Source: Candidatus Schekmanbacteria bacterium RIFCSPLOWO2_02_FULL_38_14
Lineage (GTDB): Bacteria; Schekmanbacteria; GWA2-38-11
Direction of reading: 5' to 3'
Assembly (NCBI GenBank): GCA_001790855.1
Contig: MGDH01000016.1
Location: forward strand, 2,044-66,043
Length of the DNA: 64,000 nt
Shown here: positions 34,998 to 62,160 of the stretch, in pieces
Numbering within the stretch: the first letter of the stretch is position 1
Layout: the number at the start of each line of letters is the position of its first letter
Made by a program: the position numbers and the translations under genes
The notes under the pieces: generated by a model
The model's database searches: none
The model's input: the letters and a program-made list of their open reading frames with translations, nothing else
Told to the model about the DNA's origin: nothing

Positions 34998-35888
34998 TCA
35001 CCCAGATAACTCTATATGTTTTACAACTACATTTCTAATCCCCGCAGGATCCAGACCCACATGACGCCGAACCTCGTTCAATGTACCATACCAGCAACAG
35101 AAGTCGTCCGGCAGCAGGCCATGATAGGCCGTCTGAAGGTTGGGCACTTCGTTAACAGCCTCGTAGAGACCAAGCGCATCGTGCACTACAAGGATCTTCG
35201 TCTTAGAAAATTCAGTGAGGATCTCCTTGTCGATTGGTTTTATGGTGTGAAAATAAATAAGGTTCACATTCAAATCCTTGCATGCTTCAAGTACATTGAC
35301 CAAAATCGGACCCGCGGTCATCACCGTCACGTTTGAACAGGCTCTCTTTAGAACCACACCCTTGCCAAATTCCACGGAATAATCATTAATTAAGTGGGGA
35401 TGATCCGAAAGCCTTATGTAGGATGGCTTTCCTCTCCGGTATTGGCTCCGCAACAAAATATTAAGTTCTCTTGTCGAGCCGGGTTGAATAACTTCCATAC
35501 CAGGCAGGAGCCGCAAAATCGCCAAATCCGTATATGAGTGGTGGGATGCCCCGTCCCAAGCATAATCGAACGTCGCCCCACATGAAACAATATTGACACC
35601 GAAGCGGTTATAACACACATCCAGCTTTATCTGCTCATAGCTCCTCTCTGTTATAAATGGCGCTATTGTATGAACAAAAGGGAAAAAACCTTGCGAGCTC
35701 AAACCAGCAGAAACACTTATAAGCGTGTTCTCACAAATACCCATATTGTAAAATCTATCAGGATATCTGTCCTTAAAATCCTTGAAGAGATAAACACTCA
35801 CATCTCCTAGTATCAAAACCACTCTATCATCTTGCCTGGCCAAATCTAAAACTGTTTCTTTAAATTGTTTCCTCACACAGCTCTCCAA
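34998..35888 (-). CDS. Transketolase, C-terminal (pyrimidine-binding) subunit, copy 1
   Basis: 296 aa. NMGICENTLISVSAGLS and FVHTIAPFITERSYEQIKLD blocks. TTG start in the track (a GTG at 35876 is also possible). Markedly GC-rich relative to its neighbours. Confidence 0.83.
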   Translation of the reverse strand: MESCVRKQFKETVLDLARQDDRVVLILGDVSVYLFKDFKDRYPDRFYNMGICENTLISVSAGLSSQGFFPFVHTIAPFITERSYEQIKLDVCYNRFGVNIVSCGATFDYAWDGASHHSYTDLAILRLLPGMEVIQPGSTRELNILLRSQYRRGKPSYIRLSDHPHLINDYSVEFGKGVVLKRACSNVTVMTAGPILVNVLEACKDLNVNLIYFHTIKPIDKEILTEFSKTKILVVHDALGLYEAVNEVPNLQTAYHGLLPDDFCCWYGTLNEVRRHVGLDPAGIRNVVVKHIELSG

Positions 35889-36642
35889 TTAAATTTTCAA
35901 GCTCTTGATCATTTGGCGACCTTCTATGCCATTCATATTGATTCTCGATTAGCGTTCTGCAACCAAAACCCTTTTTAGTATCAGCAACAATAACTCTGAC
36001 CGTGTCGCTTTTCTTTGTTATTTCTTTTTTTAATTTGTCTATATCGTGACCGTTAACTTCAACAACTTCACAACCAAAACTTTTAAATCTTTCGGCAGGA
36101 TTGGTTATTTGCAGTCCCCTACTGTGAGACATGTTATTGTCATATATAATAGTAAGGTTATCGAGTTTCAGATGAGAGGCAACCATAACCGCCTCCCATA
36201 CAGATCCTTCATTAGATTCACCATCGCCGATAAGTACAAACACCTTCCTATTTTCACCTTTTATTCTAATTGCAAGCGCTATCCCAACAGCAATACCTAT
36301 TCCATGTCCCAAAGAACCTGTTGATGCCTCTATGCCTGGCACTTTAAGCCTATCTGCATGACATCCTAAATCCGACATGAAAGATCCGAAAGTCTCCACC
36401 CTCTTTTTATCAAAGTAACCGAATTCTGCCAAAACACAATAATGAGCAAGTGCCGCGTGCCCCTTGCTTAAAATAAATATATCTCTTTCTTTCCACGACG
36501 GATTTTTAGGATCGTGTTTTATCGTACTATAAATCGTATATAGTATCTCTATAATAGAGAAACAGGTAGGGATGTGCCCATGACCACTTAATTGAGCAAT
36601 TCTCAAAATATCTTTTCTGATTTTTTTACAAATAGGCTTCAT
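35860..36642 (-). CDS. Transketolase, N-terminal (ThDP-binding) subunit, copy 1
   Basis: 260 aa. GHIPTCFS, LSKGHAALA, ASTGSLGHG, GDGESNEGSVWEA (ThDP GDG...N motif). Confidence 0.88.
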   Translation of the reverse strand: MKPICKKIRKDILRIAQLSGHGHIPTCFSIIEILYTIYSTIKHDPKNPSWKERDIFILSKGHAALAHYCVLAEFGYFDKKRVETFGSFMSDLGCHADRLKVPGIEASTGSLGHGIGIAVGIALAIRIKGENRKVFVLIGDGESNEGSVWEAVMVASHLKLDNLTIIYDNNMSHSRGLQITNPAERFKSFGCEVVEVNGHDIDKLKKEITKKSDTVRVIVADTKKGFGCRTLIENQYEWHRRSPNDQELENLIGELCEETI

Positions 36643-37406
36643 TCTATTTTCAAGTACGATACTCTTGAAGTCATTGGAAGTCTTTGAATTCTCACGTTAT
36701 TTAATCCTAACACCTCTTTAAGTGCTATTGTCTCTCCAGGAAAGATATCATCACATAATTCATCAAACACAAGAATGCTCCCTTTGCACAAATAGGGTTT
36801 AATGGCTTCCAATGCAACTTTGGTAGGTGCATAGATATCAAAGTCCAGAACGGCCAAAGAAATGATAGTTTCCGGGTGTTTCTTAAAATATTCTGGTAGA
36901 GTTTCTCTAATATCTCCCTTTACAATTTCATATCTCTTTAAATGAGACATCGGGTTCAACTGTTCTTGCATGTATAAAACTTTACCGAGGTAATCTTCAT
37001 AACCATGCGCTACCGAAAAAGAACCGTCCTTACATTTGCAAAGTTCACCATCCTTTTCAGACATTCCTCTAAAACCCTCAAATGTATCAAAACCCACAAT
37101 TTTCCTATGCCTGTTAAATGGCTCGAACACCCCCCTCAAAGCAGACATGATTGATAATGTCTGACCCCATCTGACTCCAAATTCTACAACTATACCATGA
37201 GTATGGATAATCTTTTTATAAATTTCATAAAAGAATAGTATTCTTGACAGATTCTTAGATGTCAGAAACAATCCCAGGTTAGGCAACAGTTCATCATCAG
37301 GAAGCGGAGCAGACTTAAGTTGTTCTACAAACTGTTTTAAAACTGCCTTCTCATCCGAGTTGGATAAAATTATTGCATCGTGTTTTTCTGTTTTCATTTG
37401 TTCCAC
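36639..37406 (-). CDS. TylF/MycF-like sugar O-methyltransferase
   Basis: 255 aa. VEFGVRWGQT, FDTFEGF, LAVLDFDIYAPT and ILVFDE blocks are typical of macrocin-O-methyltransferase-like enzymes. Confidence 0.72.
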   Translation of the reverse strand: MEQMKTEKHDAIILSNSDEKAVLKQFVEQLKSAPLPDDELLPNLGLFLTSKNLSRILFFYEIYKKIIHTHGIVVEFGVRWGQTLSIMSALRGVFEPFNRHRKIVGFDTFEGFRGMSEKDGELCKCKDGSFSVAHGYEDYLGKVLYMQEQLNPMSHLKRYEIVKGDIRETLPEYFKKHPETIISLAVLDFDIYAPTKVALEAIKPYLCKGSILVFDELCDDIFPGETIALKEVLGLNNVRIQRLPMTSRVSYLKIE

Positions 37407-38413
37407 CTTCCTTTATTTTCAAACCACCATTCGGTGGTTTTCCTTATTCCCTCCTCGACAGTATTTTGTGCCTGCCAACCAAGAGTGTTTTTTATCTTTG
37501 TACAATCAAGCGCCCTGAAATTCATAGTTGTGGGTTTGTCTTGAATGTATTTTACTTCTTTTGGTGTATGTCCTGCATATTTCAAAGCCAGATTAACAAC
37601 CTCACCAACCGAGACTTTTACTCCAGAGCCAACATTGAAAACATCGAATTTAACATTACCATTGTCTAACATCATTACAATCGCTCTTGCAAAATCATCT
37701 GAATAAATAACATCCCTGATGACATCAGGACTTCCCCATACTTCGAAAGGGTCCATCTTATCAATGGCTTTACGAATAATTGCTGGAATAAAATTAGAGG
37801 TCTTCGGGTCAAATTTAGCATAAGGACCAAAAATATTTGCTACCCGGGCCACAACTATTTCCATACCATTTTGCTCATATAAAAATTTGCATAGTTTTTC
37901 GATAAACCTAACTACCCATCCAAATCCCAGATAAGCCTGATTGGGATCCTTGTTCAAATCAAGTTCATCCTCTTTTATACTCCCTTCGAACTCCTGATAT
38001 AAAGTTGCAGAACCAATATAAATTACCCGTTTAATATTTTCCAGCTGAAATGCTTCTATCATCTGTGTATTCATCAATAAATTTTCTTTAATATGCCTCC
38101 ACGGGAATGATCTTATTATGCCTGCCCCACCTGTATATGCGGCTGCCATAACTGCACAATCACATCCACTAGCCATCCTCTTGCAATCCTCTAGAGAAGT
38201 TAGATCACCATCCACATAATCCACACGCTCATTTTTAATAAAAGGTCTCGTATTCTTATAATATGAGGCACGGACTTTGGCTCCAGGATAATTATTAAGG
38301 ATATGCACCAAAATGCTGGTGCCCGCCATCCCAGTCGCACCTGCCAAAAAAATTAATTTCTCATTTAACGTAGATCTGTTTTTTTGCAATTTCACAAGAT
38401 TGCTATTTTTCAA
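37394..38413 (-). CDS. Extended SDR epimerase/reductase, non-canonical active-site motif
   Basis: 339 aa. FLAGATGMAGTSI, IGSATLY, ARVANIFGPYAKFD. Has FGWVVR in place of YGWxK. Confidence 0.75.
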   Translation of the reverse strand: MKNSNLVKLQKNRSTLNEKLIFLAGATGMAGTSILVHILNNYPGAKVRASYYKNTRPFIKNERVDYVDGDLTSLEDCKRMASGCDCAVMAAAYTGGAGIIRSFPWRHIKENLLMNTQMIEAFQLENIKRVIYIGSATLYQEFEGSIKEDELDLNKDPNQAYLGFGWVVRFIEKLCKFLYEQNGMEIVVARVANIFGPYAKFDPKTSNFIPAIIRKAIDKMDPFEVWGSPDVIRDVIYSDDFARAIVMMLDNGNVKFDVFNVGSGVKVSVGEVVNLALKYAGHTPKEVKYIQDKPTTMNFRALDCTKIKNTLGWQAQNTVEEGIRKTTEWWFENKGRWNK

Positions 38414-39395
38414 TCGTTAGTGCTTTCCATGGACAACGAGACAACTCCTCTTTCCAATACACCAACATATCTTGGAGGGTTTTTTCAAAAGGTATTTCCG
38501 GCTTCCATCCTGTTTCATTTTTGAATTTGTCTATACAAGGTATCTGCAATGTCACATCAGAAGGCCTCAACAGTTTGGAGTTAACCTTAACCTCAATCCT
38601 TACCTTAGAAAGTGACAATAAAATATCCAAAGCCTCCCCAATCATCATTGTCCTATCACCGCCTATATTATAGACCTCACCGGGCTTACACCTGTTTATT
38701 AAAATCCAATATGCCCTCACCGCATCTCTCACGTCACAGAAAGTTCTCACGGATTTTAAGTTCCCAACATATACAACCGGTTTGCTAAGTCCTAATTCAG
38801 CAGCTGCAACCTGCTTGGCAAATGACGACATGGCAAAAACATCACCTCTCCTTGGCCCTGTATGAGTAAACATTCTAGTGCGTATATTTTTAATTCCGTA
38901 AGATACAAAGTACTGAAAGGCTATCATATCTTCTCCGACTTTGCTTACTGCATATGGCGAAGCCGGCTTAAACGGGCATGTTTCTTTAATTGGAACATCT
39001 GCCTCATTTACCTGGCCATAGACTTCTGAAGACGAACATATATGAACAACTGGATTAATTTCCGTTATCCTAACGGCCTCGAGCAGATTTGTTGTCCCTA
39101 TAACGTTCACCCATAGAGTGTGAACAGGAGAGTTAAAACTGGTCAAAACATAACTCTGCGCCGCTAAATGAAAAATAACCTCAGGTTGAACAACCTTAAG
39201 ATGTCGAATCAGAGCGCCCAAATCACAAAGATCAGCCTCAAGTGGAGTTACTTTATTGTATATTTTTTCAAGATTATCCTTTGGGCTTCTCCACCTGCAT
39301 AATCCATAGACTTCATGATTTTCATTTAGATTAAGTATATATTCTGCAAGATGACTCCCCACAAAACCTGTTATTCCTGTAATCAATATTTTCAT
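38403..39395 (-). CDS. GDP-mannose 4,6-dehydratase / GDP-4-keto-6-deoxymannose reductase family SDR
   Basis: 330 aa. ILITGITGFVGSHL, SSSEVYG, SPYAVSKVGED (canonical YxxxK), RMFTHTGPRRG. Confidence 0.8.
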   Translation of the reverse strand: MKILITGITGFVGSHLAEYILNLNENHEVYGLCRWRSPKDNLEKIYNKVTPLEADLCDLGALIRHLKVVQPEVIFHLAAQSYVLTSFNSPVHTLWVNVIGTTNLLEAVRITEINPVVHICSSSEVYGQVNEADVPIKETCPFKPASPYAVSKVGEDMIAFQYFVSYGIKNIRTRMFTHTGPRRGDVFAMSSFAKQVAAAELGLSKPVVYVGNLKSVRTFCDVRDAVRAYWILINRCKPGEVYNIGGDRTMMIGEALDILLSLSKVRIEVKVNSKLLRPSDVTLQIPCIDKFKNETGWKPEIPFEKTLQDMLVYWKEELSRCPWKALTIEK

Positions 39396-39443
39396 ATAAT
39401 AAATCTCATTCTCTATGCTGTTAATGATTTAACTTTGTATAGA

Positions 39444-40574: not shown

Positions 40575-40650
40575 CTTAAACACCCTCCTCATCTGTTGTT
40601 TTTTTTATGTCTCCAAGAATAGTTAACAGATGATCCCCAGCTTTATACTC

Positions 40651-51080: not shown

Positions 51081-51737
51081 TTAATCCGCTATGAACCACC
51101 AATAATCTCCAGTGTATCCCACCTCATCAAATAATTTTTTCCAGTCATCAACATGCATCATAGTCTCAGCAGTAAGCACCCATTTGAAAAGATTCTCCCG
51201 CTCGGTCTCATTTCGCCATGCATCAACAGTAATATAGCTATTGCCTCTGCAAACACGCTGGATTTCACGAAGTGCCTCTTTAAGGCGCTGAAGAGGAAGG
51301 TTATGGATAGAGTTAATGGAGATGACTAAATCAAAGCTCTTATCAGGATAAGGTAATTTTTCTGCACTCCAGATTTTCAGAAACGGTTTAACTGAAGGCA
51401 TTGCATTCTCAATAGCATAAGAACTTACATCTATTCCAGCAACAATACAGCCAGGTATCAACTCTTTGAAGTCATGCAACATAAAGCCTTTTCCACACCC
51501 AATATCCAGAATAGCGGCATTCTCAGGCAAATTATAATAATCCTTCATACGCTTTACAACAGACTTCCATCTGCCGTCGTATTTATATCCCCCATAACCG
51601 CATTTCCGGTCACCATCAAAAAAATCCTTTCCAAACTGTTTAGCAATGCGGACAATCTCAGGAGTTTTCTCCTGTGCACGCTTATCATAATCCCGTACAG
51701 TTTTTGGATGCGTATCAAGCAAATTAATCTCTTTCAT
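51081..51737 (-). CDS. Class I SAM-dependent methyltransferase
   Basis: 218 aa. Motif I ILDIGCGKGFML and post-I acidic residue. Confidence 0.8.
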   Translation of the reverse strand: MKEINLLDTHPKTVRDYDKRAQEKTPEIVRIAKQFGKDFFDGDRKCGYGGYKYDGRWKSVVKRMKDYYNLPENAAILDIGCGKGFMLHDFKELIPGCIVAGIDVSSYAIENAMPSVKPFLKIWSAEKLPYPDKSFDLVISINSIHNLPLQRLKEALREIQRVCRGNSYITVDAWRNETERENLFKWVLTAETMMHVDDWKKLFDEVGYTGDYWWFIAD

Positions 51738-54611: not shown

Positions 54612-55292
54612 CTACCCTTTGTTCCCTACTCCAATAGCCAATAAATAGTGGGCCATTGGGAAGAATCCAGTATGCACAACTTCATCATTCATAGAAAAAA
54701 TAAAAACATTTTCAAAAAATGATGCCATTAACTTTTTAAGACTTTCTCCACTCTTTAAGTTTATGTGACCAATAGCACTTTCTGAAGAAGCATATTGCTG
54801 AGAATTAATATTGGGAGTACCAATAATAAAAATGGCATCTGGTTTTAATGAATCACTAATATTTGTCATAAACTTTTGCTCAAGATTAGGCGGGATGTGT
54901 TCAATAACATCCAAAGCAAAAGCACCATCATATTTTTTTTTCAATGGTCTTGTCGTAATATCTAAAACCTCATAAGTACAATTCGCTCCATATTCTACTC
55001 TTTTGACATTATCTTCAATTACAAGAGGTTCAATATCAATACCATGTACACTACCGACAGTTTGCAATACAATAGCAGTTCCCAAAGAATCCCCGCAACC
55101 GACCTCTAACACTTCCTCTTTGCCTGCTAATATTTTTGCACAAAACTTATAACGTGAAAGTAAAAAACACAAATGTCTTGGATCATTTCTCCATATATGA
55201 CTGGTATATGGTCCTAAGACAACACCACCTTTGTTATAATATGTATCAAATTGAATTTGGTTTTGAGGTTCATTGGCTATTCTTCCTGACAT
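54612..55292 (-). CDS. Class I SAM-dependent methyltransferase
   Basis: 226 aa. Motif I VLEVGCGDSLGT, then ALDVIEHI. Confidence 0.8.
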   Translation of the reverse strand: MSGRIANEPQNQIQFDTYYNKGGVVLGPYTSHIWRNDPRHLCFLLSRYKFCAKILAGKEEVLEVGCGDSLGTAIVLQTVGSVHGIDIEPLVIEDNVKRVEYGANCTYEVLDITTRPLKKKYDGAFALDVIEHIPPNLEQKFMTNISDSLKPDAIFIIGTPNINSQQYASSESAIGHINLKSGESLKKLMASFFENVFIFSMNDEVVHTGFFPMAHYLLAIGVGNKG

Positions 55293-55302: not shown

Positions 55303-56235
55303 TCACATATGTTTTTTAAAATTATTTTGTATAACTCTTATTATCCCATCTGATGAAAGACCCGCCTGTGAACAGAGTTCCTCGTAAGTGCCATAGTCAT
55401 GCATAAACGAATCAATGGCAATTGAGCTAAACTGCATACCTTTAATATTATAAACTCCCTGTAAAATATCATGCCCCAATCCACCAAAACGATTGTGCTC
55501 CTCTACTACAAGAACTTTTTTAGTCTTCTCAACACTTTCATATATTAATGGTAAGTCCAAAGGCAATATAGTATGAACATAAATTATCTCAACATCCCAT
55601 CCCTTGCCTGAAAGTTTATTTCTTGCTTCTATAGCATTTTTAAGCTGTGGCCCTGTAGCAACAAGAGTAATATCTTTTCCTTCAGTAATTTTAATAGCCT
55701 TGCCAAATTTTATTAAAAAAGGATCTATTAATTGCTCATGCTGAACCTCAGGTATTCTAAACAAGGTTAAATAGCTGTTGTTGTATGTTTGCTTGAAAAG
55801 TATATCAAATTCAGCACATGAGCTAGGATATACAACCTGTGTATTAGGAAGAGATTTAATCAATGCAAAATCATCATAACAATGATGTGTACATCCGAGG
55901 TTTGAATAATCAAATGCACTCCCAACTGATATAAGATTTCCGTTCAGCTTTTGATAACAAAAATCTAACTTAATTTGCTCAAATGATCTCTCAAGAATAA
56001 ATGGCGCAATTGTATGCACAACAGGATAAAAACCGGTTTTTGCAAGTCCGGCTGCCATACTGACAATAGTTGGTTCACATATTCCCACATTATAAAATCT
56101 GCCGGGGCAAGCTTTTGCAAATGGCTGTAAAATAAAATGGCTAATATCACCTATCAAAACTACCAAGTTGGGATCGCTTTGCCCTACTTCCAACATTGTA
56201 TCTGCAAACTGTTGCCGTATTTTTTTTAGCTTCAA
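55303..56235 (-). CDS. Transketolase, C-terminal subunit, copy 2
   Basis: 310 aa. NVGICEPTIVSMAAGLA, VVHTIAPFILERSFEQIKLD. ATGA overlap with its N-subunit gene. Confidence 0.88.
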   Translation of the reverse strand: MKLKKIRQQFADTMLEVGQSDPNLVVLIGDISHFILQPFAKACPGRFYNVGICEPTIVSMAAGLAKTGFYPVVHTIAPFILERSFEQIKLDFCYQKLNGNLISVGSAFDYSNLGCTHHCYDDFALIKSLPNTQVVYPSSCAEFDILFKQTYNNSYLTLFRIPEVQHEQLIDPFLIKFGKAIKITEGKDITLVATGPQLKNAIEARNKLSGKGWDVEIIYVHTILPLDLPLIYESVEKTKKVLVVEEHNRFGGLGHDILQGVYNIKGMQFSSIAIDSFMHDYGTYEELCSQAGLSSDGIIRVIQNNFKKHM

Positions 56236-57005
56236 GAGAGTGCCTCCATAATTATTTTATATTCATCTTCATTTGGAATCTTGTGGTGCCATATCCCATG
56301 CCCTTCAAGCATAGGAACACCCTTTCCCTTAATGGTCTTTGCAATTATCACGATTGGTGCACCATTAACACAAAAATTTATATTTGATAAGGCAGATTTG
56401 ATCTCTGCTTCCGAATGCCCATCTATTACAATTGTGGTCCAGCCAAATGCCTTCCATTTCGAAGGAAAATCATCACGAGGCATTAACTGTGCGGCAGAAC
56501 CGTTCCAGTCCACCATAACACATAGATTTCCTAACTGAAGATTATTTGCAACATTAGCAGCTTCCCAAATAGTGCCTTCATGACACTCTCCATCTCCAAC
56601 AAGAACAAACACTCTGTTAGATTTGCCACGAATACGAAGTCCTAAAGCAATGCCAACAGCAAAAGAAAAACCGTGGCCAAGAGAACCTGTAGATGCCTCG
56701 ATTCCCGGAATTTTGGTGCAATCAGGATGCTCACCCAATATCCCTCCTGGTTTGCAAAACATATTAAGGTCATCTTCTGTAATAAACCCACAACTTTTAA
56801 GGACTACATACAGAGCAAGACACCCATGACCTTTACTTAAAATAAAATAATCACGATCTTCCCAATCAGGATTTTCAGGATCAAATCTAAGATAGTTTTT
56901 GTATAAAATGGCTATTATATCAACAATAGAAAATGCACTTGGAATATGACCATCCTTTCCCTTTCTAACCATTTCAACAATCCGTTTGCGATATTCCTCA
57001 TGCAT
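56232..57005 (-). CDS. Transketolase, N-terminal subunit, copy 2
   Basis: 257 aa. GHIPSAFS, LSKGHGCLA, ASTGSLGHG, GDGECHEGTIWEA. Confidence 0.9.
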   Translation of the reverse strand: MHEEYRKRIVEMVRKGKDGHIPSAFSIVDIIAILYKNYLRFDPENPDWEDRDYFILSKGHGCLALYVVLKSCGFITEDDLNMFCKPGGILGEHPDCTKIPGIEASTGSLGHGFSFAVGIALGLRIRGKSNRVFVLVGDGECHEGTIWEAANVANNLQLGNLCVMVDWNGSAAQLMPRDDFPSKWKAFGWTTIVIDGHSEAEIKSALSNINFCVNGAPIVIIAKTIKGKGVPMLEGHGIWHHKIPNEDEYKIIMEALS

Positions 57006-57034
57006 CTATCTTCCCCCTTGCAAGTTTAATTAAG

Positions 57035-57811
57035 CTATTGCCCAAAATAACCTCTTCCCTGTCCTCCATCTATAGGAATAATGCTTCCCGTATTAAAAGA
57101 AGCTAATTCAGAACAAAGAAATGTGACAAAGTTTCCAATTTCTTCAGGTTGACCAAAACGCCCAATGCGCTGCCTTTCAGTCAGAAATTTTTTGACATGT
57201 TCAGGATTTTCTTTTAAGGTTATATCCCAATATCCCTTCTCTGTGAAAACCGCACCTGGAAGCACGGCAGAAACTACGACTCCATCTGGAGCAACGACAC
57301 CGCCAAAACTTCTTGTATACGCTGTCAAGGCAGCTTTTATTGCACAATAAGTTACAGGGCCATGGTTTTCCATCGAAGAAATAGAAGAAATGTGAACTAC
57401 ACGCCCCCACTTCTTTTTTTGCATATTTGGAACAAGAAGTATGTTTAATTCTACTGCAACTTCAAAATTGAAACGATATATACGTCTCCAATCCTGAATA
57501 GAACAAAAAGGATCCTTTATATCAAGTGTACCACCAAGATTATGTACCAATATAGATGGCTTTCCAAAGTCCTTATTAAGTATTTTAACAAGTTCTGCAG
57601 GACCGGTATCATCGGTCAGGTCAAGTGTTATTCCTAAATGTCCCTTAACTTTTCCACCTATTTCATCTATCAAGCTTTCTACATCAGCAGAAGTCCTTGA
57701 AACAACGGCAACACGCGATCCTTCCCTTGCAAGACATTGTGCTATAGCCCGCCCAATACCACGACCTCCGCCAGTTACTAAAGCTAACCGGCCAAAAATT
57801 CCTAAATTCAA
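57035..57811 (-). CDS. Classical SDR oxidoreductase
   Basis: 258 aa. TGGGRGIGRA, YCAIK (YxxxK). Confidence 0.88.
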   Translation of the reverse strand: MNLGIFGRLALVTGGGRGIGRAIAQCLAREGSRVAVVSRTSADVESLIDEIGGKVKGHLGITLDLTDDTGPAELVKILNKDFGKPSILVHNLGGTLDIKDPFCSIQDWRRIYRFNFEVAVELNILLVPNMQKKKWGRVVHISSISSMENHGPVTYCAIKAALTAYTRSFGGVVAPDGVVVSAVLPGAVFTEKGYWDITLKENPEHVKKFLTERQRIGRFGQPEEIGNFVTFLCSELASFNTGSIIPIDGGQGRGYFGQ

Positions 57812-57827
57812 AATAATCTCCTTAATA

Positions 57828-59030
57828 TCAAATTATATGTAAAGGATAGATAATATGCTTAGGTCTGAATGCAAATAGTTTAGTCATTATAGGTTTAATA
57901 TTATCAATCGCAGTAACAAAAATAGTTAACCCATTAGTATTTTCAATTTTATTTGAATGTTGAACTTGAACCGGAAGGTTAGCATAAAACAAATCATCTT
58001 TTTCTTTGTCATCATCAATGACTGCTTTCAAAAACGAAAGGTCAGTTTTTAAATGATATGCTAAAACCGGAAGCATCAGAGCAGCACCATACCCGTATAT
58101 ATGGGTGTTCTTGAATTCAAATAATATTTTTCTCGTATTATCCATTTGGCTGAAAAACAGGTTTCTCTTGCGTTCAATATCTTCTTTTGCAAAAGGGAAT
58201 TTAAAGCGTTTTTGTTTTGAAGTCTTTTTTCTAAAAGCAACAATTAAAGCACCCCAATTGTGATAATTTTCAGTAAAACCTATTAACTCAGCTCCGCATT
58301 TTTCTAAAAGAACACTGAGCGAGCTTAAACTAAAGTATTGTAAATGTTCATGAAAAACCTGATCAAACCTTCCTTTTGTTATCAAAGATTCAAATCCTGG
58401 CATTTCAAAAAGGAAAAGTGTATTTGCGGTGGAACAATCAATCAGTTTTTTTAAAACAGTTTGAGGGTCAAAAATATGTTCAAGAGTATGCCTGCACACA
58501 ATTAGATCAGGCTTACAGGGAAGGGCTTTTTCTAAATCAATGTCTTCAAGTGCCCCTCCTATAACGTGTAAATTTTGGTCATCATTATCTGGTTTTTTTG
58601 AAGTCCATATAGGATCAATTCCTATCCTTGTCTTTCCAAAGGATTTCATTTTATTTAGTAAATATAAATCATTACATCCCACATCAATAATGCACTCAAT
58701 TTTTTTGTTTGGAATAAGAGTTTTTAAATAATCAAGAAATATTTCAGTCCCATGTTGCGCGGTTGTACTTAAAGAAGTTCTGAAAGTATATTTCTGAGAA
58801 TCATAAAGTATTTCAGGATTAATCTGATTTCGAAGTTGACCATGTCCGCATTCCGGACACCATAACAAAGCTTGATCAAACCCTTCTGAAAAATCAGCAT
58901 GCTTTTTTTTTGAAAACAAACCAGTAATTGGCAATTCCGGCATACTCATAATCTCAATGAGATTTTCATTATTGCAAACTGCACACCACGATCTTTTACA
59001 TACAATTATATCTTCATGCTTTATGGACAT
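57828..59030 (-). CDS. NDP-hexose C-methyltransferase (TylCIII/EvaC-type architecture)
   Basis: Start moved to MSIKHEDIIVC (ATG 59030). N-terminal Cys4 Zn motif (CAVC...CPECG), SAM motif IIDVGCNDLYLL, C-terminal domain. The track start 59234 would overlap the upstream gene by 221 nt. Confidence 0.75.
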   Translation of the reverse strand: MSIKHEDIIVCKRSWCAVCNNENLIEIMSMPELPITGLFSKKKHADFSEGFDQALLWCPECGHGQLRNQINPEILYDSQKYTFRTSLSTTAQHGTEIFLDYLKTLIPNKKIECIIDVGCNDLYLLNKMKSFGKTRIGIDPIWTSKKPDNDDQNLHVIGGALEDIDLEKALPCKPDLIVCRHTLEHIFDPQTVLKKLIDCSTANTLFLFEMPGFESLITKGRFDQVFHEHLQYFSLSSLSVLLEKCGAELIGFTENYHNWGALIVAFRKKTSKQKRFKFPFAKEDIERKRNLFFSQMDNTRKILFEFKNTHIYGYGAALMLPVLAYHLKTDLSFLKAVIDDDKEKDDLFYANLPVQVQHSNKIENTNGLTIFVTAIDNIKPIMTKLFAFRPKHIIYPLHII

Positions 59031-60012
59031 AATCGAGCGGCTCCTTTTTAATCTGCTCCCAATCATTCTCAACCCATTTGACAACGCCAGCCAAACCCTC
59101 TTCCATAGAGATAGTTGGTTTCCATTCAAATTCTTTTCTCGCTTTACCAGAATCAATAACATAGGCAGCATCCTGCCCAAGCCTCTCAGCAACTGTTTTT
59201 GTTGCCTTATTAAAATCGAGTCCCATTTTTTCACAAATAATACGCACTACATCCCTTACAGCAATCCCTTGATCCGGAGACAGGTGGTAGATTTCACCTG
59301 TTCTTCCTTTTTCCATCGCAGCAAGTTCCCCGATTGAAATATCTCTTATATGGATATAAGACTTGACTGCTTTGCCACCACCGTGAAGCTCAATAATCTT
59401 TCCTAACTTTAAATAAATTGCTGACCTTGGAATAATTTTAAATAATTGCTGGTGCGCACCATATACATTGGTAGAACGGATCATTACCATTGGAAATCCA
59501 AAGTTCTTCACAAAAGTAAAAAGTGACAAATCCCCTGCAGCCTTAGATGCTGCATAAGGAGTACTGGAATTTAGCGGAGCGTCTTCTTTTACAATTCCTA
59601 CGCAGGTGCCATATACTTCAGGAGAAGAAATATGAACATACCGTCTAAGAAATTTACGGTCTTTTAAAGCGTGTGCTAATTCAGTAATTGAAACTGCATT
59701 TGTTTGAAACCACTGGCCAGGATTTTCCCAACTCGGAGCTACCTCGCTTTGTGCAGCAAAATTCACTACAAAGTCGGGTTTAAAAGAATCAACCAGATTG
59801 ATAACCTGAGACATACCTTTATTCAAATCCATCTTATAAAATTTAAAGTCCGGGTTCTTGCTCTTCTTGTAAGGTAAAAACAAAGCACTTTTCTCCGGTG
59901 ACCTGCTGATACCTGCAACCGAGTATCCTCCCTTTTCCAGCAACAAATCTATAAAATCGCTACCCGAAAAAGAGTTACTGCCTATTACTATAACTTTCTG
60001 TTTACTTTGCAT
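59014..60012 (-). CDS. NDP-hexose 4,6-dehydratase family SDR
   Basis: 332 aa. VIGSNSFSGSDF, ISSPEVYG, TPYAASKAAGD. Confidence 0.78.
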   Translation of the reverse strand: MQSKQKVIVIGSNSFSGSDFIDLLLEKGGYSVAGISRSPEKSALFLPYKKSKNPDFKFYKMDLNKGMSQVINLVDSFKPDFVVNFAAQSEVAPSWENPGQWFQTNAVSITELAHALKDRKFLRRYVHISSPEVYGTCVGIVKEDAPLNSSTPYAASKAAGDLSLFTFVKNFGFPMVMIRSTNVYGAHQQLFKIIPRSAIYLKLGKIIELHGGGKAVKSYIHIRDISIGELAAMEKGRTGEIYHLSPDQGIAVRDVVRIICEKMGLDFNKATKTVAERLGQDAAYVIDSGKARKEFEWKPTISMEEGLAGVVKWVENDWEQIKKEPLDYVHKA

Positions 60013-60039
60013 TATTCACCTTGGTACTCTTGAACATTA

Positions 60040-60090
60040 GAAGTGAGGTAATAAGAAATGGGAACCCATTTCTCACTTCCCATTACCTCA
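60040..60090 (-). other. Nested intercistronic stem-loop (no U-tract)
   Basis: On the minus strand: GAGGTAAT-gggaagtg-AGAAATGGG-tt-CCCATTTCT-t-ATTACCTC. Lies between the E1-beta stop and the dehydratase start. Confidence 0.3.
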
Positions 60091-60118
60091 TTTCAATATA
60101 GCCTATATGGAGCATTTT

Positions 60119-61177
60119 TTAAAAAGGACCGGTAAATGATCTGTCCGGAACATCCAGAGGGGTATCATGAAAAATTCCGAGTTCTTCTTCACTCCGCAAG
60201 GGAAGTCCAAACATCTTTCCGGCTGCATTGACAATATCAACAGATTTAGGATAATAATGATTTGCCAGTGCCCAACTTGTTGGAGTTGGAACGTCCGGAA
60301 ATGTCACACGGGAAGGAGCAGATTTCAGATAGCTATGCGCCTTTTCACATACAAATGCTATTATTTCGGCAGAAACACCAAAGCTGCGCCATGCACCATC
60401 TACTACCAAAAGATGGCCAGTTCTCCTAACAGAGTCTAAAATTAATTCTTCGTCCATGGGTTTAATCGTTCTCAAATCTATAACGTCGGAGTTGATTCCG
60501 CCTTTGGCAAGAATATCTGCTGCTTTTAATGCCTCTAAAGACATGTACGATGAAGCAACGATTGTTATTGAATTCCCTTCTCGCATTTTTTTTGCTTTGC
60601 CTATAGGAACGCGATACATCTCCTCTGGAACATGACCAAATATATTATGCAACCAGCGGTGTTCGAGATAAATAACCGGGTTATCATCTTCAATTGCTGC
60701 TATCAATAAACCTTTAGCATCATATGGCGTAGTCGGCATCACAACCTTCAACCCGGGAATATGCGCAAAAATAGACTGCAGGCTCTGCGAGTGCTGTGGC
60801 CCCTGACCCCAACCCCTCCCAATAATCAAACGGATTACCAAAGGTACTTTCATCTTTCCACCAAACATATAGTGCCATTTTGCTGCATTATTGATGATTT
60901 GATCCAATGATAAGAGCATAAAATCAATACGCTGGTGGGTAATAATTGGCCGCATCCCTACCAGAGATGAACCTATCGCAACCCCTGTCATTCCATTCTC
61001 TGCAACGGGCATATCCATTACCCTTTTACTGCCAAACTTTTTTTCAAGACCAATGGTGGTTCCAAATATTCCTTTGGGATCAGTAACACCAAGGCCCATA
61101 ATATAGACAGAAGGGGCATTTTCCAGACACTGGCTTGTGGCCTCAAGAATTGCCTGTGCGTAATTAAGTTCCCGCAT
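60119..61177 (-). CDS. ThDP-dependent 2-oxoacid dehydrogenase E1 component, beta subunit-like
   Basis: 352 aa. DMPVAENGMTGVAIG, GRGWGQGPQHSQS and a C-terminal transketolase-C-like domain. Confidence 0.88.
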   Translation of the reverse strand: MRELNYAQAILEATSQCLENAPSVYIMGLGVTDPKGIFGTTIGLEKKFGSKRVMDMPVAENGMTGVAIGSSLVGMRPIITHQRIDFMLLSLDQIINNAAKWHYMFGGKMKVPLVIRLIIGRGWGQGPQHSQSLQSIFAHIPGLKVVMPTTPYDAKGLLIAAIEDDNPVIYLEHRWLHNIFGHVPEEMYRVPIGKAKKMREGNSITIVASSYMSLEALKAADILAKGGINSDVIDLRTIKPMDEELILDSVRRTGHLLVVDGAWRSFGVSAEIIAFVCEKAHSYLKSAPSRVTFPDVPTPTSWALANHYYPKSVDIVNAAGKMFGLPLRSEEELGIFHDTPLDVPDRSFTGPF

Positions 61178-62160
61178 TATCTTAATTCGTCCCCAGCATA
61201 AACATCAGAATAAATTTGATTAATCTCAGGGAAAGGGCTCTCCTTAGCAAAATTAATCGCCGCATCAATTTCCGATCTAATCTTTTGCCTGAACTCTTTA
61301 ATCTGCTGCTGAAGAAGAATTCCCTCCTGAAGTAAACGCTTTTCAAAGTTTTCCACAGGGCATTTCTGGTACCATTCCATAAACTCTTCTTCCGACCGAT
61401 AGCCCAAATTATTATCATAATTAGGTCCGCAGTGCTCGCGAAACCTATATGTATCAAACTCAATAAAGGAGGGCCCTAAACATTTGCGGGCATGTTCAAT
61501 GGCTTTCCCAGCAATATGATCTACTACCTCTACATCATTACCATCCCCCTTTTCACTGTATATACCAAATGCCCTTGCAATAGATAAATTATCACGTTCT
61601 TCTGGCTGACGAACTGAAAGCGGCGAATATACAGAATAAAAGTTGTTCTCACAAACAAAAACAACCGGCAATTTTTTCAAGGCAGCAAAGTTTAAACTCT
61701 CACAAAACACCCCTTCCTCTGTAGCGGCGTCTCCCAAAAAAACAACTGTAACTCTATTTTCTCCTTTCATAACTGTTCCAAAAGCAACTCCTACAGCAAC
61801 CGGAATAATTCCTCCTACTATAGGGGTCGATCCCAAATAATTTACTTCAAGATCTACAAGATGCATAGAACCTCCTTTGCCTTTTGTACAACCAGTGGCT
61901 TTGCCTAATATTTCCGCCATCATCGCTCTAAGACTGCCTCCTTTGGCAAGAAAGTGGCCATGACTCCTGTGGTTACTCATTACATAGTCTTCTTTTCTAA
62001 GATTTGCACAGACACCCGCGGCTATGGCTTCCTGGCCTGAGCAGAGATGGACTGGACAACGCATCTGTTGTTCAGGATATAACTCTACAATGGTTTCCTC
62101 CACCATGCGGATTTTTAACATATTATAATAAAGCTCTAACTTTTTTTCTTTAATAATCAT
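61177..62160 (-). CDS. ThDP-dependent 2-oxoacid dehydrogenase E1 component, alpha subunit-like
   Basis: 327 aa. GQEAIAAG, HRSHGH, GGSMH, ThDP motif GDAATEEG...CENN. 1-nt overlap with the beta gene. Confidence 0.88.
   Translation of the reverse strand: MIIKEKKLELYYNMLKIRMVEETIVELYPEQQMRCPVHLCSGQEAIAAGVCANLRKEDYVMSNHRSHGHFLAKGGSLRAMMAEILGKATGCTKGKGGSMHLVDLEVNYLGSTPIVGGIIPVAVGVAFGTVMKGENRVTVVFLGDAATEEGVFCESLNFAALKKLPVVFVCENNFYSVYSPLSVRQPEERDNLSIARAFGIYSEKGDGNDVEVVDHIAGKAIEHARKCLGPSFIEFDTYRFREHCGPNYDNNLGYRSEEEFMEWYQKCPVENFEKRLLQEGILLQQQIKEFRQKIRSEIDAAINFAKESPFPEINQIYSDVYAGDELR

What the first reader, a model, noticed from the sequence alone, without database searches (positions are those of the whole stretch)
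34998..62160. Three separate two-subunit thiamine-diphosphate enzymes in one glycan locus
There are two split transketolases (35860..36642 + 34998..35888, and 56232..57005 + 55303..56235) whose N subunits look like diverged paralogues by eye. There is also one E1 alpha/beta pair (61177..62160 + 60119..61177). All show GDG/GDA...N(N) ThDP motifs. No E2 lipoyl-acyltransferase or E3 gene accompanies the E1 pair in this window, and no pentose-phosphate genes accompany the transketolases. ThDP-dependent transfer of two-carbon units onto keto-sugars is established for YerE (yersiniose A). It was also proposed for the E1-like AviB1/AviB2 pair in avilamycin biosynthesis. Three such enzymes suggest two-carbon branching or chain extension of NDP-ketosugars, giving higher-carbon or branched sugars.
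Basis: partly seen in the sequence, partly recalled or inferred. Interest (0 to 1): 0.72.

Follow-up and report, generated by a model that had tools for sequence, protein, structure and literature searches.

The report
Thiamine enzymes in heptose-glycan cassettes
Three two-subunit thiamine-diphosphate enzymes in this surface-polysaccharide locus belong to two gene cassettes for modified seven-carbon sugars that recur in hundreds of bacterial and archaeal species, and they most likely attach two-carbon units to activated sugars, a role I found no published report of for transketolase-type enzymes.

Summary
Two split transketolase-like pairs (TK1, TK2) and one E1 alpha/beta pair are intact genes in a single minus-strand, Wzx/Wzy-type glycan operon of a Candidatus Schekmanbacteria MAG. 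No E2 or E3 gene lies in the window or in the 10 kb upstream.

They are not three loose genes. E1 and TK2 belong to one conserved cassette: GmhA-like isomerase, HldE-like kinase/nucleotidyltransferase, dTDP-glucose-4,6-dehydratase-like enzyme, TylC3-like C-methyltransferase, SDR, methyltransferases and a Zn-ADH. TK2-type hits occur in 276 of 185,579 species genomes, bacterial and archaeal; E1-beta accompanies TK2 in 39 of 45 fully flanked loci. TK1 belongs to a second cassette whose neighbours most resemble Campylobacter GDP-heptose 4,6-dehydratase and 3,5-epimerases and the NDP-sugar O-methyltransferase CalS11.

Both TK C subunits keep the catalytic residues. They lack three of the four residues that bind the substrate phosphate in canonical transketolases; the histidine is glycine in all 240 relatives checked. 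This argues against pentose-phosphate chemistry.

Best reading: ThDP-dependent two-carbon transfer onto NDP-heptose keto or aldehyde intermediates. Branching versus chain extension is unresolved, and nothing is biochemically shown. I found no literature on such transketolases. I rate it a new variant of a known kind.

The parts
61177..62160 (-). E1 alpha-like subunit (327 aa), ThDP-binding
   Evidence: Pfam E1_dh 9e-65. TIGR03182 scores 315 bits, below its 393.85 cut-off. The best PDB match is human PDH E1 alpha, 3.9e-50. The GDA...ENN motif is present.
60119..61177 (-). E1 beta-like subunit (352 aa)
   Evidence: Pfam Transket_pyr plus Transketolase_C. PRK09212 scores 316.8 bits against a 321 cut-off. 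It overlaps the E1 alpha gene by 1 nt. It is present in 39 of 45 fully flanked TK2 loci.
56232..57005 (-). TK2 N subunit (257 aa), ThDP/PP domain
   Evidence: Pfam Transketolase_N 6.2e-42. The best PDB match is the 6YAK split transketolase N chain, 2.7e-64. The equivalents of human TK His37, His77, His110 and His258 are kept.
55303..56235 (-). TK2 C subunit (310 aa), Pyr plus C domains
   Evidence: Pfam hits and a 6YAJ match at 1.5e-42. Its residues at the seven substrate-site positions read R-F-E-G-L-H-E, against canonical R-S-E-H-D-H-R.
35860..36642 (-). TK1 N subunit (260 aa)
   Evidence: Pfam Transketolase_N 1.7e-33. 40% identical to TK2N. Overlaps the upstream CalS11-like methyltransferase gene by 4 nt.
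34998..35876 (-). TK1 C subunit (292 aa; the ORF as listed starts at 35888)
   Evidence: Pfam Transket_pyr 3.4e-25; the C-terminal domain is degenerate. All 120 listed family members are of similar size, 279-311 aa. The residue pattern R-Y-E-G-D-H-D holds in every family member with a complete N-terminus.
57035..57811 (-). Classical SDR (258 aa), partner of TK2
   Evidence: adh_short. Present in 36 of 45 full loci. It lies directly upstream of TK2N in 47 of the 61 loci that carry it.
57828..59030 (-). NDP-sugar C-methyltransferase-like protein (400 aa)
   Evidence: Methyltransf_13 and Methyltransf_23. The PDB hits are TylC3 (D-mycarose 3-C-methyltransferase), TcaB9 and another sugar 3-C-methyltransferase. 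Present in 33 of 45 loci.
59014..60012 (-). dTDP-glucose 4,6-dehydratase-like protein (332 aa)
   Evidence: TIGR01181 scores 190 bits, below its cut-off. PDB 6BI4 matches at 7.4e-42. Present in 34 of 45 loci.
62170..63183 (-). Extended-SDR epimerase/reductase (337 aa)
   Evidence: Epimerase and GDP_Man_Dehyd. Present in 28 of 45 loci.
63211..64000 (-). C-terminal (PfkB kinase) part of an HldE-like bifunctional protein; the gene runs off the window
   Evidence: PfkB. The full 510-aa protein in L001 hits HldE, rfaE_dom_I and rfaE_dom_II, with the two domains in swapped order. Present in 32 of 45 loci.
49493..50539 (-). Zn-dependent alcohol dehydrogenase (348 aa)
   Evidence: ADH_N and ADH_zinc_N. 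Class III ADH-like in PDB. Present in 34 of 45 loci. A Zn-ADH also lies next to a distant TK-like pair in L092.
51081..51737 (-). SAM methyltransferase (218 aa) of cassette A
   Evidence: Methyltransf_11 and Methyltransf_25. Present in 37 of 45 loci.
54612..55292 (-). SAM methyltransferase (226 aa) directly downstream of TK2C
   Evidence: Present in 16 of 45 loci.
36639..37406 (-). CalS11-like NDP-sugar O-methyltransferase (255 aa), partner of TK1
   Evidence: PDB CalS11 (TDP-rhamnose 3'-O-methyltransferase) at 3.4e-59. Present in 13 of 17 TK1 loci.
38403..39395 (-). GDP-heptose 4,6-dehydratase-like protein (330 aa)
   Evidence: The best PDB hit is 7US5, GDP-D-glycero-D-manno-heptose 4,6-dehydratase, at 6.9e-79. 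Present in 15 of 17 TK1 loci.
29011..29529 (-). RmlC-fold 3,5-epimerase (172 aa)
   Evidence: Several of the best PDB hits are named GDP-D-glycero-4-keto-D-lyxo-heptose 3- or 3,5-epimerases. Present in 15 of 17 TK1 loci.
26350..28069 (-). GHMP kinase (27071-28069) and sugar-1-phosphate nucleotidyltransferase (26350-27063)
   Evidence: The kinase's best NCBIfam hit is HddA; the nucleotidyltransferase's second-best hit is HddC, behind a mannose-1-phosphate guanylyltransferase model. All are below cut-off. Present in 14 and 12 of 17 TK1 loci.
29526..33318 (-). Two extended-SDR genes of cassette B (29526-30524 and 32359-33318). A MiaB-like radical SAM gene and a 170-aa ORF are inserted between them.
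   Evidence: 29526-30524 is GDP-fucose-synthase-like. Co-occurrence with TK1 is 11 and 15 of 17 loci.

Best explanation
The three enzymes are dedicated nucleotide-sugar tailoring enzymes, not central-metabolism enzymes. The locus makes two elaborate heptose-derived sugars for a Wzx/Wzy-type polysaccharide.

Cassette A (about 49.5-64.7 kb):
- A GmhA-like isomerase and an HldE-like kinase/nucleotidyltransferase make an NDP-heptose.
- A dTDP-glucose-4,6-dehydratase-like enzyme makes a 6-deoxy-4-keto intermediate.
- The E1 alpha/beta pair decarboxylates a 2-oxo acid (probably pyruvate) and adds the resulting acyl carbanion to a sugar carbonyl. This is AviB1/AviB2- or YerE-like branching.
- TK2 forms dihydroxyethyl-ThDP and transfers this glycolaldehyde unit to a carbonyl of the NDP-sugar. 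The carbonyl is either the 4-ketone (giving a branch) or an aldehyde made from the terminal CH2OH by the conserved Zn-ADH (giving a two-carbon chain extension).
- The adjacent SDR reduces the new ketone.
- C- and O-methyltransferases finish the sugar.

Cassette B (about 26.3-39.4 kb) is a Campylobacter-like GDP-heptose pathway: kinase, guanylyltransferase, 4,6-dehydratase, 3,5-epimerase and reductases. Here TK1 and a CalS11-like O-methyltransferase add a further step of the same kind.

What is shown: gene content, conservation of the cassettes, and retention or loss of active-site residues.

What is inferred: substrates, donors, the order of steps and the products.
For: 1. Context. The whole 21.6-64 kb stretch is one co-directional glycan operon with Wzx-like, Wzy-like, GT1, GT2 and WecG genes.

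2. No E2 or E3. None is in the window or the 10 kb upstream. No credible ORF carries the E2 catalytic motif DHRxxDG in 2.3 Mb of window plus related loci.

3. Cassette A is conserved.
- A scan of 185,579 species genomes gave 276 species with a relative.
- In the 45 loci with at least 9 kb on both sides, TK2 is accompanied by E1b in 87%, E1a in 80%, MT218 in 82%, SDR258 in 80%, Zn-ADH in 76%, the 4,6-dehydratase-like gene in 76%, the C-methyltransferase in 73%, the HldE-like gene in 71% and the GmhA-like gene in 51%.
- Hosts span more than 15 bacterial phyla and four archaeal lineages.

4. Cassette B is conserved. In 17 metagenomic loci, TK1 is accompanied by the dehydratase, the epimerase and EPI319 in 88% each, the GHMP kinase in 82% and the CalS11-like methyltransferase in 76%.

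5. The neighbours' closest solved relatives all act on NDP-sugars. These are GDP-heptose 4,6-dehydratase 7US5 (6.9e-79), GDP-heptose 3,5-epimerases, CalS11 (3.4e-59), TylC3/TcaB9 and dTDP-glucose 4,6-dehydratase.

6. Catalytic residues are kept. Both N subunits keep the ThDP motif and four His residues. Both C subunits keep the cofactor-activating Glu and the His equivalent to E. coli His473.

7. Three of the four phosphate-binding residues of canonical transketolase are replaced. Using human TK numbering, with roles taken from the transketolase structural literature:
- S345 becomes F or Y.
- H416 becomes G, in all 240 family members checked.
- R474 becomes E/A/G in TK2C relatives and D in TK1C relatives.
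- The bona fide split TK 6YAJ keeps all of them.

8. The Asp that binds the acceptor's 2-OH is Leu in the TK2C family. From my own knowledge, engineered E. coli TK variants at this position (D469) gain activity on non-hydroxylated aldehydes.

9. In an NJ tree of 50%-identity representatives, the Gly-type proteins form a large radiation, and the canonical R-S-E-H-D-H-R proteins sit near the root. Two distant Gly-type members also lie between NDP-sugar SDR genes.

10. Precedents: YerE is established, and AviB1/AviB2 and Pau11/Pau12 are proposed (PMC4753412). The split transketolase DesAB is hypothesised to act on a non-phosphorylated ketol and sits next to a Zn-dependent dehydrogenase (PMC3735941).
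Against: - No biochemical or glycan-structure data exist for any member.
- Both cassettes also carry the genes that start from a ketose phosphate (GmhA-like, kinases). A role for the TKs at the sugar-phosphate stage is therefore not excluded by context alone.
- One phosphate-binding Arg (human R318) is retained. DXS-type enzymes bind phosphate with different residues, so loss of the canonical site is suggestive rather than conclusive.
- Natural transketolases use aldehyde acceptors. Transfer onto a ketone would be unusual for this fold.
- The E1 pair keeps both His residues used for reductive acylation of lipoamide (alpha ...REHC..., beta ...PQHSQ...). An E2 encoded elsewhere cannot be ruled out from sequence.
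- The residue mapping rests on sequence alignment only; no structure was modelled.
Confidence: 0.6

Rival explanations
1. Precursor building at the sugar-phosphate stage. The TK-like pairs make the ketose phosphate that feeds the cassette. This could be extra sedoheptulose-7-P, or an octulose or nonulose phosphate. It would then be isomerised by the GmhA-like enzyme, phosphorylated and nucleotide-activated. This would parallel the transaldolase LmbR at the start of the GDP-octose pathway of lincomycin (my own knowledge).
For: Both cassettes contain GmhA-like, kinase and nucleotidyltransferase genes. The TK fold, the ThDP motif and the catalytic His residues are canonical.
Against: Three of the four canonical phosphate-binding residues are replaced in every family member. 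The TK genes sit between late-acting NDP-sugar enzymes and are translationally coupled to a CalS11-like NDP-sugar methyltransferase. A distant family member lies in a locus with extended SDRs and a glycosyltransferase but no Pfam-recognisable kinase or isomerase (L093). Two different TK-like pairs in one locus are hard to explain as precursor supply.
Confidence: 0.15
2. Ketol cleavage rather than addition. The TK-like enzymes remove a HOCH2-CO two-carbon unit from an NDP-sugar side chain or branch, as proposed for DesAB on cortisol. This would shorten or remodel the sugar. The Zn-ADH or SDR would set up the ketol or dispose of the glycolaldehyde.
For: DesAB is a split transketolase hypothesised to cleave a non-phosphorylated ketol, and it is encoded next to a Zn-dependent dehydrogenase (PMC3735941). 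The same TK plus dehydrogenase pairing is conserved here. The His residues equivalent to E. coli His26 and His261, which bind the donor's C1-OH (my own knowledge), are kept.
Against: In a pyranose heptose, the carbon next to a 6-keto group carries the ring oxygen rather than a free OH, so the standard cleavage is chemically blocked (inference). Transketolase reactions are reversible, so this differs from the best explanation mainly in direction.
Confidence: 0.15
3. The E1 pair is an ordinary pyruvate or acetoin dehydrogenase E1 that happens to lie in the locus and works with E2/E3 encoded elsewhere.
For: It scores close to the PDH E1 models: beta 316.8 against a 321 cut-off, alpha 315 against 393.85. 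The catalytic His residues are present.
Against: There is no E2 or E3 in the window, in the 10 kb upstream, or in related loci. The pair is embedded between an epimerase and a 4,6-dehydratase. It travels with TK2 in 36 of 45 loci across phyla, archaea included. That is not expected for a housekeeping complex.
Confidence: 0.05
4. Acyl-donor supply. The ThDP enzymes generate activated acetyl or glycolyl units that are used to O- or N-acylate the sugars. This would resemble the transketolase-like NapB/NapD and QncN/QncL systems that load a glycolyl unit onto a carrier protein (my own knowledge).
For: ThDP enzymes can oxidise the enamine intermediate to an acyl group. The E1 pair could in principle do this.
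Against: Pfam found no lipoyl or E2-like protein, acyl carrier protein or CoA-transferase in the cassette genes. No acyltransferase gene is among the genes that recur with either cassette.
Confidence: 0.05

Closest known systems
AviB1/AviB2 (avilamycin) and Pau11/Pau12 (paulomycin): E1-like pairs proposed to install a C-4 acetyl branch on NDP-sugars from pyruvate (PMC4753412)
   Same: An E1 alpha/beta pair without E2 or E3, inside a sugar-tailoring cluster and next to a 4,6-dehydratase that provides a 4-keto acceptor.
   Different: Those are in actinomycete antibiotic clusters and act on 6-deoxyhexoses. Here the pair is in a cell-surface glycan locus, on a heptose pathway, and always paired with a transketolase-like enzyme. 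Sequence orthology was not testable. Even the AviB function is only proposed.
YerE and relatives (ErwE, MMAR_2332, MyGE): ThDP-dependent carboligases (YerE is a ThDP flavoprotein) that branch NDP-4-keto sugars in LPS biosynthesis (PMC4753412, PMC9306805)
   Same: ThDP-dependent addition of an acyl unit to a nucleotide-sugar carbonyl in a glycan locus, followed by ketoreduction.
   Different: YerE is a single-chain enzyme of the acetolactate-synthase/pyruvate-oxidase fold (my own knowledge). The enzymes here are two-subunit transketolase-fold and E1-fold proteins.
Split-chain transketolase of Carboxydothermus hydrogenoformans (PDB 6YAK/6YAJ) and canonical transketolases
   Same: The same two-gene architecture and fold, the ThDP motif, the catalytic His residues and the activating Glu.
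   Different: Three of the four phosphate-binding residues and, in TK2, the 2-OH-binding Asp are replaced. Scores are below the equivalog cut-offs. There is no pentose-phosphate context.
DesAB, putative steroid-17,20-desmolase of Clostridium scindens (PMC3735941)
   Same: A diverged split transketolase thought to act on a non-phosphorylated HOCH2-CO-C(OH) ketol, encoded next to a Zn-dependent dehydrogenase.
   Different: Steroid catabolism, not glycan synthesis, and cleavage rather than synthesis. Sequence relationship not tested (sequence unavailable).
Campylobacter jejuni GDP-heptose modification pathways: 4,6-dehydratase, C3/C5 epimerases, C4 reductases (PMC7949155; PDB 7US5, 7M14, 8DB5)
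   Same: The dehydratase and epimerase of cassette B have these proteins as their best solved relatives, and one reductase-like SDR is GDP-fucose-synthase-like. The HddA- and HddC-like activation genes also match.
   Different: To my knowledge the Campylobacter pathways contain no ThDP enzyme. The TK1 plus CalS11-like pair is an added step.

Membership tests
Canonical transketolase (EC 2.2.1.1), including split-chain forms | PP-domain ThDP motif (GDG...N) and Transketolase_N / Transket_pyr domains | tested here: met
Canonical transketolase (EC 2.2.1.1), including split-chain forms | Catalytic His residues (human His37, His77, His110, His258) and cofactor-activating Glu (human E366) | tested here: met
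   Alignments; Glu column.
Canonical transketolase (EC 2.2.1.1), including split-chain forms | Substrate-phosphate binding residues (human R318, S345, H416, R474; E. coli R358, S385, H461, R520) | tested here: not met
   Only the R318 equivalent is kept. S becomes F or Y; H becomes G (240 of 240); R becomes E/A/G or D. 6YAJ keeps all four.
Canonical transketolase (EC 2.2.1.1), including split-chain forms | Asp binding the acceptor's 2-OH (human D424, E. coli D469) | tested here: inconclusive
   It is Leu in the TK2C family and Asp in the TK1C family.
Canonical transketolase (EC 2.2.1.1), including split-chain forms | Score above the curated equivalog cut-off | tested here: not met
   Best scores are 241 and 147 bits (TK2N, TK2C) and 211 and 111 bits (TK1N, TK1C) against a 488 cut-off for the full-length model. 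Because the genes are split, half-length scores are expected to be lower, so this test is weak.
2-oxo acid dehydrogenase E1 (heterotetrameric PDH / acetoin DH / BCKDH type) | E1_dh alpha subunit plus Transket_pyr/Transketolase_C beta subunit, ThDP motif, and catalytic alpha-His and beta-His | tested here: met
   The alpha subunit has ...FREHC... aligned to human YHGHS; the beta subunit has ...PQHSQ..., read by eye.
2-oxo acid dehydrogenase E1 (heterotetrameric PDH / acetoin DH / BCKDH type) | Partner E2 lipoyl-acyltransferase and E3 genes in the same operon | tested here: not met
   None is in the window or the 10 kb upstream. None is in the Pfam-annotated homologous loci L007-L009. No credible DHRxxDG ORF occurs in 2.3 Mb of loci.
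2-oxo acid dehydrogenase E1 (heterotetrameric PDH / acetoin DH / BCKDH type) | Score above the curated NCBIfam cut-off | tested here: not met
   Alpha 315.3 against 393.85. Beta 316.8 against 321, which is marginal.
AviB1/AviB2-type E1-like NDP-sugar branching enzymes | E1 pair without E2/E3 inside a sugar-tailoring cluster with a 4,6-dehydratase | tested here: met
AviB1/AviB2-type E1-like NDP-sugar branching enzymes | Sequence orthology to AviB1/AviB2 or Pau11/Pau12 | not testable with these tools
AviB1/AviB2-type E1-like NDP-sugar branching enzymes | Pyruvate-dependent acetyl transfer to an NDP-4-keto sugar | not testable with these tools
   This needs an enzyme assay. It is only proposed even for AviB1/AviB2 (PMC4753412).
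YerE-type ThDP carboligases | Single-chain TPP_enzyme_N/M/C (acetolactate-synthase-like) architecture | tested here: not met
   Among the 46 window ORFs scanned with Pfam, only a weak partial TPP_enzyme_C hit appears, on TK1N. No such protein was found among them.
GDP-heptose modification pathway (Campylobacter type), for cassette B | GDP-heptose 4,6-dehydratase, RmlC-fold C3/C5 epimerase, C4 reductase, and HddA/HddC-like activation | tested here: met
   7US5 at 6.9e-79. GDP-heptose epimerases are among the top hits. A GDP-fucose-synthase-like SDR is present. HddA is the best NCBIfam hit for the kinase and HddC the second-best for the nucleotidyltransferase, all below the equivalog cut-offs.

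The most novel reading that the evidence does not exclude
A large, previously unrecognised clade of two-subunit transketolase-like enzymes has traded the sugar-phosphate site for a nucleotide-sugar site. These enzymes carry out two-carbon ketol transfer on NDP-heptoses. Together with an E1-like partner, they form a mobile cassette that builds nine-carbon-or-larger, branched and methylated sugars on cell surfaces. The hosts range from SAR11 and Pseudoalteromonas to Chlamydiae, Planctomycetes, Omnitrophota and DPANN or methanogenic archaea.
Probability: 0.4. Interest if true: 0.85.

Novelty: new variant of a known kind. Interest (0 to 1): 0.72.

Why it matters

If the reading here is right, it adds three things:
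- A third enzyme fold, transketolase, doing this chemistry.
- Evidence that the E1-like solution is not confined to actinomycete antibiotics.
- Two compact cassettes that predict still-undescribed higher-carbon or branched heptose derivatives in the envelopes of many uncultured and some culturable microbes.

Such sugars would be new antigens and possible phage-receptor determinants. The enzymes would be attractive carboligases for biocatalysis, because they appear to have evolved to accept non-phosphorylated, bulky acceptors.

Pseudoalteromonas luteoviolacea strains carry cassette A, so the hypothesis can be tested directly.

Tried and rejected
- **Literature.** Ten full-text searches combined transketolase with heptose, capsule, O-antigen, rfb, nucleotide sugar, branched sugar, higher-carbon sugar, bradyrhizose, caryose or Pseudoalteromonas. 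None found a paper on transketolase-like enzymes in nucleotide-sugar or glycan biosynthesis. They yielded only the YerE/AviB literature, DesAB and AniP. The library lacks most subscription journals, so absence is not proof.
- **Phosphonate or sulfonate chemistry.** I considered phosphonopyruvate or sulfopyruvate decarboxylase and rejected it. The fold is wrong: only a 21-bit hit to sulfopyruvate decarboxylase beta. No PEP mutase domain turned up in the Pfam scans.
- **DXS-like function.** Rejected. The DXS models score far below the TK models, and the His residues that bind the donor's hydroxyl are retained.
- **Reference sequences.** AviB1/AviB2, Pau11/12, DesAB and SqwGH sequences could not be obtained, so there is no phylogeny against them.
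- **Alignment artefact.** A first family-wide alignment misplaced human His416 in a singleton column. This was fixed by anchoring on the 6YAJ histidine.
- **Genome scan ranking.** The top 80 loci of the genome scan were all TK2-type, so TK1 context had to come from the metagenome scan.
- **E2 motif scan.** The scan is crude: it uses one motif only.
- **Not run.** No structure prediction was done. The third homology search was not spent on E1.

Full report
**Observation**

The window's right two-thirds (about 21.6-64 kb) is a single minus-strand operon, seen in the ORF list and in the uniformly negative GC skew.
- Transketolase_N: 35860-36642 and 56232-57005.
- Transket_pyr, with or without Transketolase_C: 34998-35888 and 55303-56235.
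- E1_dh: 61177-62160.
- Transket_pyr plus Transketolase_C: 60119-61177.

The ThDP motifs are present in the translations. The two transketolase-like pairs are diverged paralogues, 40% and 38% identical. Subunit genes overlap by 1-17 nt. TK1C probably starts at 35876, because the database copy is 292 aa. All six proteins fall below NCBIfam's curated cut-offs for transketolase or PDH E1.

The organism is a Candidatus Schekmanbacteria MAG from groundwater. The name comes from a member of a 90% cluster; the contigs are listed.

**Surroundings**

The operon encodes the following:
- Wzx-like and Wzy-like proteins, and GT1, GT2 and WecG-family transferases.
- Many extended and classical SDRs, and several methyltransferases.
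- A NUDIX hydrolase and a Zn-ADH.
- Three B12-binding radical SAM proteins and a MiaB-like radical SAM protein.

It could be run because the same contig is public. The next 10 kb (L001) hold an HldE-like bifunctional protein, a cytidylyltransferase-like protein, two SDRs, an AP_endonuc_2 isomerase-like protein, a GmhA-like SIS protein, a methyltransferase, a glyoxalase and an aminotransferase. There is no E2 or E3.

**The genes belong to two conserved cassettes**

The closest relatives of TK2C are 62-81% identical and occur in Methylococcaceae, Omnitrophota and Chloroflexota. Their loci repeat the window's gene order.

A scan of one genome per species (185,579 species) found 276 species with a relative. 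I mapped all window proteins onto the 80 best loci with tblastn. In the 45 loci with at least 9 kb on each side, TK2 is accompanied by the following:

| Partner gene | Share of 45 loci |
|---|---|
| E1 beta | 87% |
| MT218 | 82% |
| E1 alpha | 80% |
| SDR258 | 80% |
| Zn-ADH | 76% |
| dTDP-glucose-4,6-dehydratase-like gene | 76% |
| C-methyltransferase | 73% |
| HldE-like gene | 71% |
| Second epimerase | 62% |
| GmhA-like gene | 51% |

SDR258 lies directly upstream of TK2N in 47 of the 61 loci that carry it.

Hosts include Omnitrophota, Planctomycetota, Chlamydiota, Desulfobacterota, Nitrospirota, Chloroflexota, Bacillota, Verrucomicrobiota, Lentisphaerota, SAR11, SAR116 and SAR324. They also include cultured Pseudoalteromonas luteoviolacea strains, and archaea (Woesearchaeota, Nanoarchaeota, Methanomicrobia, Methanosarcinales). 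The E1 pair and TK2 are therefore two steps of one pathway.

TK1C has its own tight family, about 70% identical across the best 120 hits. In two long contigs and in 80 metagenomic loci, TK1 sits in a second cassette:
- GmhA-like gene
- GDP-mannose-dehydratase-like gene
- SDR
- 255-aa methyltransferase
- TK1N and TK1C
- Two SDRs
- RmlC-like gene
- GHMP kinase
- Nucleotidyltransferase

In the 17 loci with at least 6 kb on each side, the dehydratase, the epimerase and one SDR each co-occur in 88%. The kinase co-occurs in 82% and the methyltransferase in 76%. The window's copy has two radical SAM genes inserted.

**What the neighbours are**

| Gene | Closest characterised relative |
|---|---|
| Cassette B dehydratase | GDP-D-glycero-D-manno-heptose 4,6-dehydratase, PDB 7US5, 6.9e-79 |
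| Cassette B RmlC-like protein | GDP-D-glycero-4-keto-D-lyxo-heptose 3- or 3,5-epimerases |
| One cassette B SDR | GDP-fucose synthase |
| Cassette B kinase | HddA is the best NCBIfam hit (below cut-off) |
| Cassette B nucleotidyltransferase | HddC is the second-best NCBIfam hit, after a mannose-1-phosphate guanylyltransferase model (below cut-off) |
| Methyltransferase coupled to TK1N | CalS11, a TDP-rhamnose 3'-O-methyltransferase, 3.4e-59 |
| Cassette A dehydratase | dTDP-glucose 4,6-dehydratases |
| Cassette A C-methyltransferase | NDP-4-keto-sugar 3-C-methyltransferases TylC3 and TcaB9 |
| Zn-ADH | Class III alcohol dehydrogenases |
| Upstream protein (L001) | HldE with its two domains in swapped order |

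Every assignable neighbour acts on nucleotide sugars or makes NDP-heptose.

**Active sites**

Against human transketolase and the bona fide split transketolase 6YAK/6YAJ, both N subunits keep the four catalytic or donor-binding histidines. Both C subunits keep the cofactor-activating Glu and the His equivalent to E. coli His473.

Of the four residues that hold the substrate phosphate in canonical transketolases, only the first is retained. These are human R318, S345, H416 and R474; their roles are taken from the transketolase structural literature, which is my own knowledge.
- Ser is Phe (TK2C) or Tyr (TK1C).
- His is Gly in all 240 family members examined.
- Arg is Glu/Ala/Gly in the TK2C family and Asp in the TK1C family.
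- 6YAJ keeps all four.

The Asp that binds the acceptor's 2-hydroxyl is Leu in the TK2C family and is retained in TK1C.

An exhaustive search of 1.84 billion representatives gave 570 clusters at E<=1e-30. Most of the best 150 share the Gly substitution. In an NJ tree they form a large radiation, while the canonical R-S-E-H-D-H-R proteins group near the root with 6YAJ. Two distant Gly-type members (34% and 41% identical) also lie between NDP-sugar SDR genes. One of them has an HldE-like gene and a Zn-ADH alongside.

**E1 pair**

It is a complete E1 by sequence, including the alpha and beta histidines, so sequence alone cannot exclude lipoyl chemistry. Three observations argue for an AviB1/AviB2-like role.
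- There is no E2 or E3 nearby.
- A motif scan of 2.3 Mb of window plus related loci found no credible E2.
- The pair is linked to TK2 and a 4,6-dehydratase across phyla and domains.

The AviB-type role itself is only proposed in the literature (PMC4753412).

**Mechanism proposed (inference)**

In cassette A:
1. NDP-heptose is made by the GmhA-like and HldE-like enzymes.
2. It is 4,6-dehydrated.
3. E1 adds a pyruvate-derived acyl unit to a sugar carbonyl.
4. TK2 transfers a glycolaldehyde unit. The acceptor is either the ketone or an aldehyde that the Zn-ADH makes from the terminal CH2OH.
5. SDR258 reduces the new ketone.
6. C- and O-methyltransferases finish the sugar.

The Asp-to-Leu change fits an acceptor that lacks a 2-OH, such as the CH2 next to C-7 in a 6-deoxyheptose. 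From my own knowledge, engineered E. coli D469 variants behave this way.

In cassette B, TK1 does a related step on a GDP-6-deoxy-4-keto-heptose-type intermediate. Products would be branched and/or C9-or-larger sugars.

Higher-carbon and branched sugars exist in LPS, and the biosynthesis of some is unknown. Examples are caryose and caryophyllose (PMC9092360) and the YerE-type products (PMC9306805).

**Rivals**

- Precursor building at the sugar-phosphate level, analogous to the LmbR transaldolase route (my own knowledge). This is the main rival. The loss of the phosphate site and the position of the TK genes among late NDP-sugar enzymes weaken it.
- DesAB-like ketol cleavage (PMC3735941). This differs mainly in direction.
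- Ordinary PDH or acetoin E1.
- Acyl-donor supply.

The last two have little support.

**Novelty and verdict**

I found no literature on transketolase-type enzymes in nucleotide-sugar tailoring (ten searches). I classify it as a new variant of a known kind, with interest 0.72.

Noticed in passing
window 33342-34889, 42992-44380, 47324-49423 (all minus strand): Three B12-binding radical SAM proteins (515, 462 and 699 aa) lie inside the glycan operon. Weakly similar genes recur in some TK1 and TK2 loci. They might C-methylate sugars at unactivated carbons.
   Followed up: partly
window 30577-31755 and 31820-32332 (minus strand): A MiaB-like radical SAM/UPF0004 protein and a 170-aa ORF with no Pfam hit are inserted into cassette B. 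One or the other recurs inside several TK1 cassettes elsewhere: the MiaB-like gene in L118, L152, L153 and L155, and the 170-aa ORF in L011, L107 and L165. This hints at an unusual sugar modification, possibly methylthio.
   Followed up: partly
window 63211-64000; full gene in L001 7418-8950: The HldE-like bifunctional protein has the adenylyltransferase domain at the N-terminus and the PfkB kinase domain at the C-terminus. This is the reverse of canonical HldE. Proteins with both domains recur in the Pfam-annotated related loci (L007, L008, L092).
   Followed up: partly
window 53545-54600, 52758-53570, 51758-52561 (minus strand): A 351-aa protein with no Pfam or NCBIfam hit, followed by two classical SDRs, forms a three-gene module. 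The module recurs in many TK2 loci (for example L008, L012, L017, L027, L040, L057).
   Followed up: no
L001 1-2463 (upstream of the window) and L011 1-2181: A trio of class III aminotransferase, glyoxalase-fold protein and methyltransferase lies upstream of cassette A here. It also lies next to a TK1 cassette in a Deltaproteobacteria MAG.
   Followed up: no
window 50589-51035; L010 16483-17064; L011 7049-7627: NUDIX hydrolase genes recur in both cassettes, next to the nucleotide-activation genes. They may edit the NDP-sugars or exchange their nucleotide.
   Followed up: no
L022, L046, L084 (genome loci): Some TK2 loci carry a second, more distant transketolase-like pair, as this window does. 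Multiple TK-like enzymes per glycan locus are therefore not unique to this organism.
   Followed up: no
window 39444-40592 and 40651-42228 (minus strand): A 382-aa protein has only a weak, below-threshold polysialyltransferase-family hit. Next to it is a 525-aa protein with no family hit. They lie between the two cassettes and may be novel glycosyltransferases or polymerases.
   Followed up: no
window 1115-3109 (minus strand): A large FG-GAP repeat protein with a C-terminal Ig-like domain lies at the left end of the window. A similar FG-GAP protein lies near the TK1 cassette in L010.
   Followed up: no
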